Positions 48,001 to 57,000 of a stretch of 64,000 bases of DNA are shown here, piece by piece (the stretch's first letter is position 1; the number at the start of each line of letters is the position of its first letter). Source of the DNA: a virus (taxonomy: Duplodnaviria; Heunggongvirae; Uroviricota; Caudoviricetes); IMG/VR virus record IMGVR_UViG_2718218172_000010; one strand, given 5' to 3'. The position numbers are program-made.

Positions 48001-51000
48001 GCTCCTCGCACTGCGCGCGGGTTATTGTTTCGTTTTCAGCCCCGGGGTCGCCAAGGCTCTGGATGGGGTACTACTTCCATTGACAGCATGAGGTAACAAT
48101 ACTGATGGTAACGCTGACCATTAACCGTAAACCACAGGGCATTTTCAGTAAATCACCGGCAACGCCGCTGCAGGATAAAATGAACACTGCACACAACGTG
48201 AAGGCCAGGGAACGGATACCACAGTTGAACGATAAACAGAGCCCTGCTCTGCTGAAAAAACACCGTGGCGGCATATGACAAAACGCCAGCGTAAAAACCG
48301 TAAGCGTATTAATCGTCTTGTGGAACACTGGCCTGAGTTATTCAACCGGGAAAAACCCCAACCGCGTAAAGTTGAGATACCTGACGACCTGATACAGGAT
48401 ATCGCCATCAGAGAACTGGCGTTTAGCGCAGGTGCATTACGCGCGGCAGTAGCGTCTTATGTGCAGTCTCCGCGCTATTACCGTGCGTTAATGGCTGGCG
48501 GCGCCCGTTACGACCTGAAGGGGCAGCCGTGCGGGGAAGTGACTCCACAGGAACAGAAAGAGGCAGAGACCCGGCTAATGGTGCTGAATGACCGACAAAA
48601 AGCCAGAAAACCTCGTTGACTACACAACTGCGCTGATTCACTGAGCTGTAATCAATGTACAGCGCTGTACCGGACGATGGGTAATGGCGGTCACAACCGG
48701 TAACCCCAGAGACAATGCGACGGTTTTTAACGCTACATACTGACCGGATGTATCACCCCGGGCAACCCGAAAACACCTTTCAACCTGGCATTGTCCGCCA
48801 GCGCTTATCACCTTCCAGGTCTGTTGCAATAAATCCACCCGTTGCGAACATTCTTCATCAACCGTGGCACTGGCCCGCGGATGGCAAATGCTCGTCTGGC
48901 TGAGCAGCAACAGGCATCGTATTGTTGCTCCTCCATGTTGTTCCCGCAACCAGCGTAATACCACCGGCGAGGATGGACAGGCAGTGTGATTACGCTCAGT
49001 AATACGTTCGTGCACCTGTCGGTAAAAGGAAGTACAGAATGCCTGAATCTGTTGCCCGTTGATGTTTCCTTCAGCCGAATGGAGCGTGAAGTGGACTGCC
49101 AGCAGACGCGGCCAGTGGTCCACCGCCTGCTGAACAAAACGCCGGATGTCTCCCGGCTCTGAAATTAAGGCTTCGGTTATTTGCACGAAATGTTCCTTTT
49201 CAAACCCTGTTGAATTTTGTTAAGCCGGTGCAGACACACGGGAAGGTGCGCATCAACACCGGTGTAATGCCAGTTATAAACAATGTGAATGGAATGACGA
49301 ATCAGTCAGGAAAGAGCTACAACCTGCTGGCTGACCGGAGAGGGTCAGCAGGAAAATGAACGGTAATGTCGCCAGCACCAGGGACAGGGCTGATTTCCGC
49401 AATACCAGCGCCGGCATTTTGCACATTGCCAGCGTACCGGCATCACAACACGTTTCATGCTGCTGCTCCTCGTGATTCCTCAATTCGCTGCTGCATCCAC
49501 TGCTCCACTTCACTTTTGTACCAGCGGCTGCTGCGGCCCAGCTTGATGGGTTTCGGGAAATGGCCTTCACTGATCAGCTTGTAAAACCATTTATCGGTCA
49601 TGCCGGTGAAACTGGTGATGTAGTTCATGTCGATCAGGGGATCCTCGGCACGCAGCAATACACTGTCGTGGCCTGTTATTGAGGTCAACATAGTCAGAAT
49701 ATCCTCTGTGAGATTTATGAAGGTTGGGCAAATGCGGGTGAATCTGCTGAACTGAGCTTTCAGAGCTGGCCTGCTACGGGATACCAGGGATTGCCGGCAA
49801 GGCAACGGGCTTCCGGATCGCACACTCCACGGCGATCGCGGGCGAAATCACTGAACGCCCTGATAAGGTCCTTAAACAGGGCTTCGCAGTCCGGTGACCG
49901 GCGATCCAGTACCACATCCCGGGTGATCTGCTTCTGGTACGGCTTTGCTTCACCTGGTGACGCGAACCCCAGCACATTACTCCAGGCATCCAGTATCAAC
50001 CGATCCAGTTCGGTGCCGTCGAAATACTCCTGTCTGACGCACAGCACCACGTGGTATTCCGGCTTTTCCGGATGACGGGTCAGGAGCCAGCAAAGGTCGC
50101 GTCCGGGTTTCGCATTCATCAGCGCACTGACGGTTTCGATAAAATCCATACCAAACCAGGTCTGTCTGCTGTTGAAGGCGTTGTCATGTTCCCACGGCAG
50201 ACGAAGCAGGATCCGCCGTATCCGTGAGCCGGACTGCTCACGCAGCGCACGCTCAAGGACGCCGATGACTTTGTTCTGATAAGATGGCCAGAAGGGTGCC
50301 AGGCTATAGTCGAAATAAGGAATAGCATTCATAAGATATGTTCCGTTATGCGCAGCCCACAATGCGTCCTGCCCGTGAATGAGCTGACGTGTTATGGCTT
50401 GCGGATGAGATTGATGGAATAAGTGAAGAACTGAAGCAGAACGGGAAGATAAGGGACAGAACACCGGATTCAGGTTCAGGATGAATGATCTCCGTTGACT
50501 TCAGTTCACATCATTAATCAATGCGGTAAGTTTTTACCGACGGAGTGTTTCCAGGAGCGGAGGCTCAGGCCTTAAGCTTCAGAAGTGAGGCTTACGAGGA
50601 CGCCCTGCAGCAGGACGTTCAGGAACTTCATTGCAGCCGTAGGCACACAGCCCGTCTTTTTGCTCTTCTTTCGCCAGATAATGCAGGGCACCGCGAATAT
50701 TATCGATGCTTTCAGGATCATTGTGGCGCACAGGAATGTTGATGTTGTATGTATAATGCGGCTGATATGTACAGCGGTGTGCCGAACCGCTGTTATGCGT
50801 AATAGACCGCCAGCATTCCGTAATCCGCTCCGCAAAGGGATATATTTTTTTAACCCTCTGACGATCGATCCAGAAAACCGCATGCGCATGAAAACCATGA
50901 TCAACCGTCCATTCAATCACCCAGAAGAAGCCAACGATATTTTCAAATTGTTCCACCTGCTCCAGCAGCATACGCAACTGCAATTCAAGCCAGCGATGAT

Positions 51001-54000: not shown

Positions 54001-57000
54001 CACCAGTCTGTTTATCGTTGTTTTTCCCGCGCCTGGCTCTGCGATTGCCAACAGATAAAGTGAGCAGGGTTCCGGCATGTTGGTGTGAGGATGAACAACG
54101 TCAACCAGTGACTGACAGGAGAGTGAGAGCGTTGCCAGTACAGTATTAAAAATGAGCTCCAGCGGAAGTTGGGTACTTTCATATAAGTCGTCAATGAGAT
54201 ATGCAAGCTCACTAGGAAATAATCTGTAGGTTAAATCAGCTGGGAAGTGGTGGGATGTCTGCAAGGATTGCATATAAGCGGAATTCATTGTAACGGACCT
54301 CCTTCACATACTGTAATCAGCGCAAAACTTATTGTTCAGTTCAGGAACATACCGGCATGGTGAGTATGTTCGCTGACGTCGATAATAAAATGGCTTATCT
54401 CCATTCACCAGTCCCGGCGCATTTATGATGCTGACAAAAGTAAAACAACATGTGTGCATCCAGAAGTCTGGCATCGCAGCGACAAATGATGGATGCATGA
54501 AAACCAGGAAACATTGCATGACTTCAGGACGACTTTTTCAGAAAACGAGCTAAGGGCGTCAACCACGCCCTTACTGTGACATATACTCTGGCACCGGATG
54601 CCGTTTTACAGGGTTCACCTGCCATCCAGTAGACGCCCCGCTCCACGGCTGCAACCATAATTACGTTGACCAGAACCGTCATGCTGCTTCGTCTCATACT
54701 TCACGAGATAACGGGCTCTCTCCATGGCTTTCTGCATCGCTTCCACATCACCACGCTTGATCCAGAGAACAGCGGCTTCACCCGGCTTTTTGTCTGAAGC
54801 CTTCCTGGTTTCAGAACATCCACCCGACAAAGGCGTATCATCGGAAGAAGGGCGAGCATCAGATGATGCCGGTTTACGGAAAGGCGTCCGCCTGGAAAAA
54901 TGAACCAGTCCATTACCCTGCCAGGGCTCAAGATGCAGAGCGCTACACCATGCCAGTTGGATCAGCGTCGCCAGCGAAGAAGGAACGGTGAAATCCCCTG
55001 GCGAGCACCAGGTATCTTTGTTGAGCAGTAATATCACGTGATAATGTTTCCTGCCTTTTTCCTTGCCAAACTCCCGACACCAGAAATAATGCAGGGTGGT
55101 TGCACGCACACGCTTGTTGGTACGTCGTTTTTTCCGCTGGTAAGCCTGAATTTTGGCTTTCAGGGATTCGAAAAAACGAGAAATCACCGCTGAATCCGGA
55201 TCGGGATCCATGATGGTGACAGGCATATGCTCAGGGAAACGTAAATCCACCCGGATTAACGAGACGGCACGGTGTTGCACCAGGGCACTGTTGAGAATAC
55301 TTTCAAAACGGGATAACCAGTAATCATTGTGTATTGGTTGATTCATGATGAGAGATCTCCGTTGATTTGGATTGACTTCACATCATTAATCGCCGCGGTA
55401 AAACTTTACGGCATCCCACCAATGAGCAACGCCAATAGCTCATGATTAAAACGGAATGAATCGTCCCGTAACGAAAAGATAATCCTGCACACGACAGCAA
55501 AACGTAAAACAACAGCATGAATGAGCTAAATGTCTAAAGAAAAACTGCCTTTTCACATTATTTTTCAGCGAGTAATCATACCAGCATCCCTAACATACGA
55601 AATCGCATCGTGATCGATCGCTGATTCGCCGAACAACTGATCGAATACACCGGAATCTGCACTAACATCCTGATGGGTAACGGAAGACTAAAAAACCAGT
55701 GTTCTATTGATTGCACGGAATGCCTGTGCGCTGGCCTGACCAGTAAGCACAATTCTACGAGTAGTAAGATATCTACTCCAAAACCATGCGCAGTAGCCAC
55801 CATATGTTGCCAGGGTGAAAAATAAGCTCAGAGCTATAGGGGAGTAATTCCCGTTAATGTCATCGCCGTACCTCAATCAGCTCACAAACTGGCTGAAACG
55901 TTAAGCTGAGGCCTTTATTCTTCAGATGTATTTTCCGGTTTACCTGTAAATTATCTTCTGATATTTATCACATTAGTAATTGTGCTGATTATCTACATAC
56001 TTCAAGGTCTGAAATATGAAGCTAACAGAAGAAAGTCTGAATCTAGTCATTGACATCCTGAATGATTTGATCTGTGAAGGAAAAATGCTGAACGATGTGG
56101 AGCGCAGATCTCTGCTCAATGCAGTTATGGCAATTACAGCGGTAAAAGAACGTTCTGTCGTATCTGTATCATCCCGAAAAGAGCAAAGTAAGAAGGAGAA
56201 GAAGGAAAGAGAGATCGATCCTCGTTTCCCAAATGCTGGTGTGGCATGGAATGAGGCAGACGAGAGTTTATTGCGAGATGTTCTGGAGGATGTACCGGAC
56301 GATGAAATTGGTAAACACCTTTTCTGGCTGGCAGAGAAACTAGGGCGAACCCCGTACAGTGTAGCCTGTAAAGTCAGACAAATTAAGAAATTACCTGCAG
56401 AATGGAAGGATCAATTTCGTAAAATCTCTGACAGGATCCGTAGTTCTGGAATGTCAGTCAGTGAATATCTACAACGCCAGGGACTGTTAAGCCCAGAGTC
56501 AGGGGAAGAAAACAATCCTGTCAGTCATAACAACAATGTAGCTTAATCCTGAAGAAGATGAACAGTTTATACTCTTTAAACTGTTCCCTTAATTTTAGAA
56601 AAACAGTTTGTGTAAGTGCATGCTCCAACATTCTGAAGGCGTTATTTCTTACAATACATCATAATCATTGGCAGATCCTCATCTGAATCAAAACACCACA
56701 ACCAATCATCACACTTTTTCTGAAAAGAGTCTTATGATGAAGATAATCACCTTACGCTGAGAAAAAACACCAGGGCCAGTTAATCACCTTATCAATCTCG
56801 CCGTTACAAAATCATCCATAAGCCATTTAACAGTGTTATCGCAAACTCACAGTAAATCGCATCAGGTTACCTCAATCGGATTTGAGTTAATTCACTGGGC
56901 TTTACGTAAAGATACTTTTCTCAAGCTAACGTCGAAACTCGAAATCTAAGGAAAGGTTAAACGTAACATCAGTAAAATCGAATAGCAGATTGATTGCTTA

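What the first reader, a model, noticed from the sequence alone, without database searches (positions are those of the whole stretch)
48638..55410. Four divergent YfjJ/Gp2-like (HUH-type) paralogs and a shared ~60-bp conserved element
Four paralogs (48638-49186, 49760-50332, 50579-51145, 54615-55346) lie within 7 kb, all on the minus strand. A conserved element (gatctccgttga...cttcacatcattaatc...gcggtaa) occurs at 50476-50545 and at 55347-55410, the latter directly upstream of a paralog's start codon. Such multiplicity suggests serial duplication or accretion of several related elements.
Basis: partly seen in the sequence, partly recalled or inferred. Interest (0 to 1): 0.45.

Follow-up and report, generated by a model that had tools for sequence, protein, structure and literature searches.

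The report
Four Rep-like genes, shared regulatory leader
A conserved stretch of an E. coli genomic island carries four very distant relatives of a replication-initiator-like protein family of unknown function, and two of them sit behind the same roughly 70-base upstream control sequence; this is mostly ordinary island mosaicism, with an undescribed candidate regulatory motif as the only new part.

Summary
The window is E. coli and is identical to strain cq9. It holds an island of more than 55 kb inserted at tRNA-Phe. The four coordinate pairs are exactly four RefSeq coding sequences on the minus strand.

Pairwise BLASTP among the four finds nothing. Profile methods show that all four are collinear remote homologues of the YagK/YfjJ ("inovirus Gp2", Rep-like) family. 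Only P4 (54615-55346) passes Pfam's threshold. P4 and P3 (50579-51145) keep the Glu / His-x-His / Tyr-x-x-Lys catalytic set. P2 (49760-50332, annotated "hypothetical") and P1 (48638-49186) have lost it. With under 25% identity these are ancient paralogues. Modular recombination brought them together; duplication in place did not.

The shared element is real: alignment score 32 against 8.3±1.3 in shuffles. In other contigs copy A always precedes P4 and copy B always precedes P2-alpA-P1. The element has three parts:
- a palindrome GTAA-N4-TTAC, one of five copies that all cluster in 46.6-57.1 kb (about 0.2-0.6 expected)
- an invariant 15-mer
- a ribosome-binding site

My best reading is a shared cis-regulatory leader, probably an operator overlapping a promoter. 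A nick site for the Rep-like enzymes and a neutral relic are not excluded. Interest is modest.

The parts
48638..49186 (-). P1: degenerate remote homologue of the YagK/YfjJ family. The His-x-His position reads T-I-R; the Glu is kept.
   Evidence: hhalign against the P4 family gives 89% probability, E 2.3e-6, covering only the N-terminal ~110 residues. HMM score 19.9 bits. There is no hit in the local Pfam copy. Relatives carry the newer PF27752, and some are named "inovirus Gp2 family". A newer RefSeq record names it "YagK/YfjJ domain-containing".
49455..49691 (-). AlpA-like helix-turn-helix protein, lying between P2 and P1.
   Evidence: PF05930 Phage_AlpA, E 2e-10. It follows P2 in every contig that extends that far.
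49760..50332 (-). P2: unannotated, catalytically degenerate homologue of the family. It has E-Y-H in place of H-x-H, Thr in place of the Glu, and Asp in place of the Tyr.
   Evidence: hhalign 96.8% probability, E 2.1e-10, nearly full length. BLASTP against K-12 YfjJ E 3.7e-6. PF11726 gives only 14.6 bits, below the 25.8 cut-off. The AF2 model has pLDDT 82 and the same order of secondary-structure elements as P4. Relatives were found only in E. coli and all are named "hypothetical".
50333..50562 (-). Non-coding leader of the P2-alpA-P1 unit. It includes element copy B (50475-50545).
   Evidence: Indels of 1, 4 and 12 nt among variants break the CTG-initiated frame. A stable predicted hairpin has z from -3.2 to -4.2. 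B is always followed by P2.
50526..50537 (.). Palindrome GTAA-N4-TTAC, block 1 of copy B.
   Evidence: The arms are intact in 24 of 26 unique variants.
50505..50519 (-). Invariant 15-mer GATTAATGATGTGAA, block 2 of copy B.
50487..50498 (-). TCAACGGAGATC, block 3 of copy B. It looks like a ribosome-binding site but is followed by CTG, not ATG.
   Evidence: Every B-type copy seen lacks the ATG.
50579..51145 (-). P3: Rep-like homologue that keeps Glu, H-A-H and Y-x-x-K.
   Evidence: PF23343 E 9.4e-5 and PF11726 E 7e-4, both below the cut-offs. hhalign 97.2% probability, E 3.7e-11. The family is present in Citrobacter, Enterobacter, Klebsiella, Salmonella, Serratia and Xenorhabdus. Invariant residues are E78, H88, Y156 and K159.
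51226..51237 (.). Palindrome GTAA-N4-TTAC, about 86 nt upstream of the P3 ATG.
   Evidence: The arms are intact in 17 of 18 variants.
52684..54288 (-). YfjI-type DUF3987 protein, a predicted helicase of mobile elements.
   Evidence: PF13148, E 5e-74. DUF3987 is predicted to be a helicase of mobile genetic elements in PMC5862659.
54551..54573 (-). Hairpin resembling an intrinsic terminator, just after P4.
   Evidence: In L008 the stem is conserved and the loop differs.
54615..55346 (-). P4: a true YagK/YfjJ family member with E92, H101-Y-H103 and Y213-x-x-K216.
   Evidence: PF11726 126 bits, E 1.8e-36. 30-32% identity to K-12 YfjJ and YagK. The AF2 model has pLDDT 84 and pTM 0.80.
55342..55410 (-). 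Element copy A, the 5' leader of P4. It holds the palindrome at 55398-55409, the 15-mer at 55377-55391, and TCAACGGAGATC at 55354-55365 with GGAG, followed by the ATG at 55346.
   Evidence: It lies upstream of the "inovirus Gp2 family protein" in 1874 of 5426 E. coli genomes. It is always followed by P4.
46587..46598 (.). A further GTAA-N4-TTAC palindrome (GTAATCGATTAC).
57043..57054 (.). A further GTAA-N4-TTAC palindrome, next to iteron-like repeats.
   Evidence: The arms are intact in 19 of 22 variants.

Best explanation
This is the conserved backbone of a large mosaic E. coli genomic island inserted at tRNA-Phe (pheV).

**The four genes.** They are ancient, highly diverged paralogues of the YagK/YfjJ ("inovirus Gp2") family, which has the fold and motifs of HUH rolling-circle Rep nucleases. 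P4 and P3 keep the metal-binding and Tyr residues and could be active. P2 and P1 have lost them and cannot work as nucleases; at most they could bind DNA or act as regulators. Recombination of modules between related islands put the four side by side. Duplication in place did not.

**The shared ~70-nt element.** It is the homologous 5' cis-regulatory leader of two transcription units: P4 alone, which is followed by a terminator, and P2-alpA-P1. It has three blocks:
- a palindromic, operator-like box GTAA-N4-TTAC, followed by a hypervariable 5-nt spacer
- an invariant 15-mer containing a -10-like AATGAT
- a ribosome-binding site

**Proposed mechanism (inferred).** A dimeric DNA-binding protein, not yet identified, binds the palindrome. 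The palindrome would overlap the core promoter, at about -34 to -23 if AATGAT is the -10. Binding would regulate these two units together with the other palindrome-bearing sites, including the one upstream of P3. That would couple expression of the Rep-like and YfjI genes with the AlpA excision regulator.

**Shown:** the homology, the motif states, the reality and linkage of the element, and the clustering and conservation of the palindrome.

**Inferred:** promoter and operator function, and the identity of the binding protein.
For: **Homology and motifs:**

**Fold:**

**Mosaicism.**
- Strain U13A has A-P4-terminator-B-P2-alpA with no yfjI and no P3.
- EC931 has yfjI-P3-B followed by IS2.
- Enterobacter and Klebsiella have alpA followed by a P3-type gene and then defence cargo.
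- K-12 has alpA-yfjI-yfjJ.
- Arrangements across 92 contigs are tabulated.

**The element.**
- The alignment is z = 18.8 above shuffles.
- A is always followed by P4 and B by P2, while the left flanks vary.
- In U13A, B sits downstream of a terminator-like hairpin, so the P2 unit needs its own promoter there.
- The spacer between blocks 1 and 2 is hypervariable while the blocks are fixed.

**The palindrome.**
- There are 5 copies, all within 10.5 kb. Whole-window shuffles expect 0.63. Local Markov simulations expect 0.18, and none of 3000 reached 5.
- The arms are intact in 86 of 93 unique variants, while the central N4 and the flanks vary.
- The island encodes candidate binding proteins: a WYL plus helix-turn-helix regulator, and AlpA.
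Against: - No sigma-70 promoter at 9 or more of 12 consensus matches is found on the coding strand in or near either copy. The -10 assignment is my own reading, and there is no recognisable -35.
- Two of the five palindromes (46587 and 57043) lie between convergent gene ends, not in front of an annotated gene.
- The variants used for the conservation counts are phylogenetically related, so the counts overstate independence.
- Blocks 2 and 3 were fixed by the search pattern used to collect the contigs. Their invariance within that set therefore carries no information.
- No binding protein is identified.
- The P3-type loci in Enterobacter and Klebsiella carry no such palindrome.
Confidence: 0.55

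Rival explanations
1. The element is a DNA substrate, an origin or nick site, for the island's HUH Rep-like enzymes (P4, perhaps P3). An inverted repeat (block 1) would position the protein, and the invariant 15-mer a few bases away would be the single-strand cleavage region, as in the oriT and double-strand origins of HUH relaxases and Reps. Nicking would start replication or transfer of the excised island, with YfjI acting as the helicase.
For: - P4 keeps all the catalytic residues of an HUH nuclease, and its fold matches replication initiators.
- The element lies directly 5' of the P4 gene and is strictly linked to it.
- The layout of inverted repeat, short variable spacer and invariant core matches that of known nick regions (the comparison with oriT rests on my general knowledge).
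- A predicted helicase gene lies next door.
Against: - The element contains the ribosome-binding site and start codon of P4, which a leader explains more simply.
- Copy B serves a gene whose product has lost the catalytic residues.
- K-12 yfjJ and yagK, closer relatives of P4 than P1-P3 are, have nothing similar upstream.
- The palindrome also occurs three times without the 15-mer.
- As single-stranded DNA, copy A has no stable fold on either strand (z 0.3 and 0.16).
- No nuclease activity has been reported for this family; its function is "still unknown" in PMC6174562.
Confidence: 0.12
2. The element acts at the RNA level. It would be a structured 5' leader in which the 15-mer pairs with the ribosome-binding site and start codon (copy A), or forms the 5' arm of a long hairpin (copy B). 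This would hold translation off until a protein such as the island's ProQ/FinO-like protein, a small RNA or temperature opens it.
For: - Copy A folds into a hairpin of -22.4 kcal/mol that buries GGAG and AUG (z -2.9; 1 of 200 shuffles folded as well).
- The B leader folds at -31.7 to -39.5 kcal/mol (z -3.2 to -4.2).
- In 24 B-type variants the 12-nt indel falls in the apical loop and few pairs are broken.
- A ProQ/FinO-domain gene lies 20 nt beyond P1.
Against: - None of the 56 predicted pairs shows a compensatory change.
- Natural A-type variants such as L004 break three pairs of the A hairpin without compensation (my reading).
- With longer flanks copy A is not unusually stable (z -0.6 to -1.7).
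- The 3' partners of the 15-mer differ between A and B.
- No Rfam family matches.
Confidence: 0.15
3. The similarity has no function of its own. It would be a relic of a past recombination or gene-conversion event that placed the 5' end of a P4-type gene in front of a P2-type gene. Since then it has been carried along, and has decayed (ATG to CTG).
For: - The start codon is lost in every B-type copy.
- The region is demonstrably mosaic, with junctions at microhomology.
- At 77% identity a perfect 15-mer is not very improbable (my estimate is about 0.25 per 70 nt).
Against: - The similarity stops at the start codon. The 49 codons after the CTG show no similarity to P4 or to the family profile (score -2.1; the DNA alignment is no better than shuffles).
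- Conservation comes in blocks, with a hypervariable spacer between fixed blocks.
- Block 1 belongs to a palindrome family that is significantly clustered and conserved at three further sites.
Confidence: 0.15

Closest known systems
YagK/YfjJ family (Pfam PF11726, formerly DUF3296 / "Inovirus Gp2"; E. coli K-12 YfjJ of CP4-57 and YagK of CP4-6)
   Same: P4 is a clear member: 126 bits, and 30-32% identity to YfjJ and YagK. The genomic company is the same (AlpA, YfjI/DUF3987), as is the island type: inserted at a tRNA or tmRNA gene and carrying the DUF932, antirestriction, RadC and CbtA-CbeA modules.
   Different: - P1-P3 fall below the family threshold and can be linked only by profile comparison.
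- P1 and P2 lack the conserved catalytic residues.
- The gene order differs: here it is P4, yfjI, P3, P2, alpA, P1, while K-12 has alpA, yfjI, yfjJ.
- The K-12 genes lack the upstream element.
HUH rolling-circle replication initiators (Pfam PF23343 REP_ORF2-G2P; Microviridae gpA-like initiators; parvovirus Rep/NS1 nuclease domains)
   Same: The conserved residues Glu, His-hydrophobic-His and Tyr-x-x-Lys appear in the expected order. The secondary structure runs alpha-beta-alpha-beta-beta-alpha-beta-alpha. These proteins are the best structural matches: 103 BFVD hits at E of 1e-3 or better, and AAV2 Rep in the PDB at probability 0.9.
   Different: - The structural matches are weak (TM 0.3-0.5; PDB E about 1e-2).
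- There is no helicase domain.
- The genes sit on integrative islands, not on small rolling-circle replicons.
- No origin is known and no activity has been shown.
Operators that overlap promoters in mobile-element regulatory modules (dimeric helix-turn-helix or WYL-type regulators binding short inverted repeats, e.g. BrxR/CapW-type systems)
   Same: There is a short palindrome with conserved arms and a free central spacer. It is repeated at several intergenic sites of one island, and a WYL plus helix-turn-helix regulator is encoded nearby.
   Different: No binding has been shown. The motif GTAA-N4-TTAC matched no operator that I found in the literature. RptR, which regulates type I restriction-modification islands, binds TAGCTA instead. 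No palindrome lies in front of the WYL gene itself.

Membership tests
YagK/YfjJ (Pfam PF11726) | Score above Pfam's gathering threshold (25.8 bits) | tested here: met
   For P4 only: 126 bits, E 1.8e-36.
YagK/YfjJ (Pfam PF11726) | Score above the gathering threshold, for P1, P2 and P3 | tested here: not met
   P3 scores 20.0 bits, P2 scores 14.6 bits and P1 has no hit. All three are nonetheless homologous by profile-profile comparison, at 97.2%, 96.8% and 89% probability. A newer Pfam version hits a 96%-identical relative of P3.
HUH endonuclease superfamily | His-hydrophobic-His metal-binding motif on a beta strand | tested here: met
   P4 has H101-Y-H103 and P3 has H86-A-H88. These positions are invariant in the P4 family and invariant or nearly so in the P3 family.
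HUH endonuclease superfamily | His-hydrophobic-His motif, in P2 and P1 | tested here: not met
   P2 has E92-Y-H94, fixed in all P2 relatives. P1 has T88-I-R90, with R90 invariant.
HUH endonuclease superfamily | Catalytic Tyr (Y-x-x-K) on a C-terminal helix | tested here: inconclusive
   Met in P4 (Y213, K216) and P3 (Y156, K159). In P2 the Tyr is replaced by Asp (S161-D162-F163). The C-terminal half of P1 does not align.
HUH endonuclease superfamily | Rep-like fold, shown by structural similarity to solved or predicted HUH nucleases | tested here: inconclusive
   The P4 model (pLDDT 84) has AAV2 Rep, MVM NS1 and B19 NS1 nuclease domains as its best PDB hits, but only at E about 1e-2 and TM 0.25-0.37. 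Against BFVD it gets 103 hits at E of 1e-3 or better, including microvirus initiators. The direction is right but the scores are weak. The P2 model depends on an alignment that includes the P4 family.
HUH endonuclease superfamily | Sequence-specific single-strand DNA nicking with a covalent 5'-phosphotyrosine intermediate | not testable with these tools
   This needs biochemistry. I found no report of it for this family.
Promoter or operator element | A transcription start and protein binding at the element | not testable with these tools
   Only indirect evidence is available: position, linkage to the downstream gene, and clustering and conservation of the palindrome. The consensus promoter scan was negative.
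Structured RNA leader | Base pairs supported by compensatory changes | tested here: not met
   None of 56 pairs has a change on both sides, and the covariation term is -0.46 kcal/mol. The sequences are too similar for this to be a strong test.

The most novel reading that the evidence does not exclude
The composite element (inverted repeat plus invariant 15-mer) would be the long-missing DNA substrate of the YagK/YfjJ Rep-like proteins. P4 would nick it to start rolling-circle-type replication or transfer of the excised island, together with the neighbouring YfjI helicase. The catalytically dead paralogues P2 and P1 would have been kept as site-specific binders that regulate the process. This would give a function to a family found on many enterobacterial and Pseudomonas islands, and it would define a replication or mobilisation module for islands now regarded as non-autonomous.
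Probability: 0.1. Interest if true: 0.7.

Novelty: new member of a known kind. Interest (0 to 1): 0.33.

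Why it matters
YagK/YfjJ ("inovirus Gp2") proteins, AlpA and YfjI are core genes of a very common class of islands inserted at tRNA or tmRNA genes in E. coli, and also in Pseudomonas (10.1101/2024.08.29.610337). These islands carry virulence and phage-defence cargo. The function of the Gp2-like proteins is still unknown (PMC6174562).

This work adds three things:
- One island can hold four diverged copies, two of them catalytically dead. One of those, present in many E. coli genomes, is still annotated "hypothetical".
- Two units share a defined leader.
- A 12-bp palindrome recurs five times in the backbone. This gives concrete, cheap experimental handles (reporters, EMSA, nicking assays) on how such islands control excision and replication.

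None of this overturns current views. It refines annotation and proposes a testable regulatory site.

Tried and rejected
1. **The 49 codons between the CTG of copy B and the P2 ATG are a coding remnant or N-terminal extension. Rejected.** The peptide scores -2.1 bits against the family profile. The DNA alignment to the 5' end of P4 is no better than shuffles. Natural variants carry 1-, 4- and 12-nt indels.
2. **The upstream regions of P3 and P1 share the whole element. Rejected.** Their alignments to copy A are no better than shuffles. Only the palindrome is shared, and only with P3.
3. **The element is common to the family. Rejected.** K-12 yfjJ and yagK have unrelated upstream DNA. The P3-type loci of Enterobacter and Klebsiella have no such palindrome.
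4. **A known RNA family.** Nothing credible came up in Rfam at E of 1 or less over 44-64 kb.
5. **A consensus sigma-70 promoter in or near A and B on the coding strand.** None found.
6. **RNA covariation.** None found.
7. **Collecting orthologous loci from other species.** The single-protein scan of genome contigs returned only two E. coli-like MAG contigs.
8. **Direct hhalign of the P3 family against the P1 family.** Not significant, E 0.47. The link runs only through the P4 family profile.
9. **Match to a known operator.** RptR binds TAGCTA, which is unrelated. I found nothing published on a YfjR operator.
10. **Solved structures by sequence.** None.

Full report
**Origin and context**

The 8-kb stretch 48000-56000 is 100% identical to the chromosome of E. 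coli strain cq9. Parts of it occur in 2,999 of 5,426 complete E. coli genomes, and the whole arrangement occurs in 297.

The window begins in core genes (trmB to yqgA). It then crosses tRNA-Phe at 7932-8007 and an integrase gene at 8205-9467. From there it runs through a mosaic island of more than 55 kb. The island carries IS elements, a type I restriction-modification system, a dGTPase, an H-NS paralogue, and further on the usual GTPase, DUF932, antirestriction, RadC and CbeA modules.

The finding lies in the conserved backbone of this island. Read on the minus strand, the order is:
- element A
- P4 (55346 to 54615)
- a terminator-like hairpin
- YfjI/DUF3987 (54288 to 52684)
- 1.5 kb of AT-rich unannotated DNA
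- P3 (51145 to 50579)
- element B
- P2 (50332 to 49760)
- an AlpA-like gene (49691 to 49455)
- P1 (49186 to 48638)

A ProQ/FinO-domain gene converges on P1.

**Are the four proteins related?**

Pairwise BLASTP among the four says no; the best E-value is 0.014.

Pfam recognises only P4:

| Protein | PF11726 (cut-off 25.8 bits) |
|---|---|
| P4 | 126 bits |
| P3 | 20 bits |
| P2 | 14.6 bits |
| P1 | no hit |

I collected relatives of each protein and compared profiles.
- An HMM built from 113 diverse representatives of the P4 family gives positive, collinear matches to all three others. The scores are 14.7-19.9 bits, with E from 1e-7 to 4e-6 for a four-sequence target set.
- hhalign gives 97.2% probability for P3, 96.8% for P2 and 89% for P1.
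- P2 also matches K-12 YfjJ directly: 21% identity over 180 residues, E 3.7e-6.
- P4 is 30-32% identical to YfjJ and YagK.
- The P3 and P1 families do not match each other directly.

The four are therefore homologous, but they are as far apart as members of a superfamily. P2 is named "hypothetical protein" in every source I saw, and I found its relatives only in E. coli.

**Is the family "HUH-type"?**

Across 112 diverse P4-family sequences the invariant or nearly invariant positions are W89, E92, H101, H103, W133, Y213, K216 and K220. That is a Glu, a His-x-His and a Tyr-x-x-Lys in the order expected for Rep nucleases.

Three other lines point the same way:
- Pfam's REP_ORF2-G2P family matches P4 and P3.
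- PHROGs families annotated as replication initiators match P4.
- An AlphaFold model of P4 (pLDDT 84, pTM 0.80) finds parvovirus Rep/NS1 nuclease domains as its best PDB matches. These are weak: E about 1e-2, probability about 0.9, TM about 0.3. Against predicted viral structures it finds 103 matches at E of 1e-3 or better, including microvirus replication initiators and "Inovirus Gp2".

No solved structure is detectable by sequence. I take the fold assignment as likely but not proven. No activity is known; PMC6174562 calls the function "still unknown".

**State of the catalytic residues**

| Protein | Glu position | His-x-His position | Tyr position |
|---|---|---|---|
| P4 | E92 | H-Y-H | Y213 |
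| P3 | E78 | H-A-H | Y156-x-x-K159 |
| P2 | Thr | E-Y-H | Asp |
| P1 | Glu | T-I-R | C-terminal half not alignable |

These substitutions are fixed within the P2 and P1 families. Two copies could be enzymes; the other two cannot work in the same way.

A model of P2 has the same order of secondary-structure elements and hits the same viral initiators. Its input alignment included the P4 family, so this is not independent evidence.

**Duplication or accretion?**

Identities below 25% rule out recent duplication in place. The modules also combine differently elsewhere:
- Strain U13A has A, P4, terminator, B, P2, alpA, with no yfjI and no P3. The junction lies at a TCCTGG microhomology.
- EC931 has yfjI, P3, B and then an IS2.
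- Enterobacter and Klebsiella have alpA, then a P3-type gene, then defence cargo.
- K-12 CP4-57 has alpA, yfjI, yfjJ.
- Among 92 metagenomic and genomic contigs that carry the element, I saw many combinations.

Accretion by recombination of modules is the supported reading.

**The shared element**

It is real. The alignment has 68 columns with one 5-nt gap and scores 32, against 8.25±1.26 in shuffles.

Copy A runs up to the P4 start codon and includes its GGAG. It lies upstream of the same gene in 1,874 E. coli genomes at 90% identity or more.

In copy B the ATG is CTG, in every B-type copy seen. The P2 start lies 147-161 nt further on. The stretch between has frame-breaking indels and no similarity to P4, so it is a non-coding leader.

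A is always followed by P4 and B by P2-alpA(-P1), whereas the DNA to the left of B varies: it can be the end of P3 or the terminator of P4. In U13A a terminator-like hairpin precedes B, so the P2 unit needs its own promoter there, and the element is the only sequence it shares with the P4 unit.

K-12 yfjJ and yagK have no such element.

**Anatomy of the element**

- Block 1 is a palindrome: CCGTAAAGTTTTACCG in A and CGGTAAAAACTTACCG in B.
- A 5-nt spacer follows. It is hypervariable within both types.
- Block 2 is the 15-mer GATTAATGATGTGAA.
- Block 3 is TCAACGGAGATC.

The core of block 1, GTAA-N4-TTAC, occurs five times in the 64-kb window, and all five lie between 46587 and 57054:
- the two element copies
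- a site 86 nt upstream of P3
- two sites in unannotated intergenic DNA

Whole-window shuffles expect 0.63 copies. Markov simulations of the 12-kb region expect 0.18, and none of 3000 reached five.

In other contigs the eight arm positions are intact in 26/27, 24/26, 17/18 and 19/22 unique variants, while the central four bases and the flanks change. These variants are related to each other, so the counts are indicative only.

This pattern is what a binding site for a dimeric protein looks like. The island encodes a WYL plus helix-turn-helix regulator and AlpA. I have no evidence for which protein, if any, binds.

**Mechanism**

I commit to a cis-regulatory leader. The palindrome would be an operator overlapping a weak promoter that lacks a -35 and has its -10 within the 15-mer (AATGAT). 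A ribosome-binding site follows. This would place P4, P2-alpA-P1 and probably P3 under common control.

What is shown: position, linkage, block conservation, and the clustering of the palindrome. The promoter itself is inferred, and a consensus scan did not find one.

Rivals:
- **An RNA-level switch.** Stable hairpins bury the ribosome-binding site, with z from -2.9 to -4.2. There is no covariation, and natural variants break pairs.
- **A nick site or origin for the Rep-like enzymes.** The layout of inverted repeat plus invariant core fits. The evidence against it is the embedded start codon, the dead paralogue behind B, and the lack of single-strand structure in A.
- **A neutral relic of recombination.** Evidence for: the start codon is lost in B. 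Evidence against: conservation comes in blocks, and the palindrome family extends to other sites.

**Verdict**

Most of this is known biology of E. coli islands, and three of the four genes already carry family names in current RefSeq. The new points are:
- the assignment of the "hypothetical" P2
- the catalytic degeneracy of P1 and P2
- the composite leader
- the clustered palindrome

Noticed in passing
window 46587-46598, 50526-50537, 51226-51237, 55398-55409, 57043-57054: There are five exact GTAA-N4-TTAC palindromes, all within 10.5 kb of the 64-kb window. About 0.2-0.6 are expected. In related contigs the arms are conserved and the centres vary. This is a candidate operator for an unidentified regulator.
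   Followed up: partly
window 57078-57206: Iteron-like direct repeats (AAAATACGTGTAT three times; AACACTTAGTA-like three to four times) lie 24 nt from the palindrome at 57043. They sit inside an unannotated AT-rich stretch (56547-57709) and could mark a replication origin of the island.
   Followed up: no
window 51146-52683: A 1.5-kb AT-rich stretch (GC 0.30-0.37) between yfjI and P3 has no annotated gene and no Rfam hit. A gap of the same size is present in strain EC931.
   Followed up: no
window 54424-50556 compared with L008 4990-5010: The block of about 3.9 kb that holds yfjI, the AT-rich stretch and P3 is absent in strain U13A. There P4 and its terminator are followed directly by element B. 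Both junctions carry TCCTGG.
   Followed up: partly
window 54551-54573 (-): A strong terminator-like hairpin lies 42 nt after the P4 stop codon. In U13A the stem is conserved and the loop is different.
   Followed up: partly
window 48105-48619 (+): The ProQ/FinO-domain gene (48275-48619) and the small ORF before it are annotated as one frameshifted gene in another genome with identical DNA. The gene converges on P1 with a 20-nt gap.
   Followed up: no
window 60121-60801 (+): This is a YfjR-like regulator with HTH_11 and WYL domains, next to the YeeP-type GTPase. WYL regulators often control defence islands. No GTAA-N4-TTAC palindrome lies in front of its own gene.
   Followed up: partly
window 13543-15039 and 18813-20474 (-): The cargo part of the island carries two phosphoethanolamine transferase genes. 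The cargo also includes a type I restriction-modification system (28142-35282), a dGTPase-family gene (44630-45862), a thymidylate synthase gene and a MazG-like gene.
   Followed up: no
window 50539-50544 against 50491-50496 and about 50342-50347: CUCCGU, at the 5' edge of element B, is complementary both to ACGGAG in block 3 and to the ACGGAA just before the P2 start. This could allow alternative pairings in the leader RNA.
   Followed up: no
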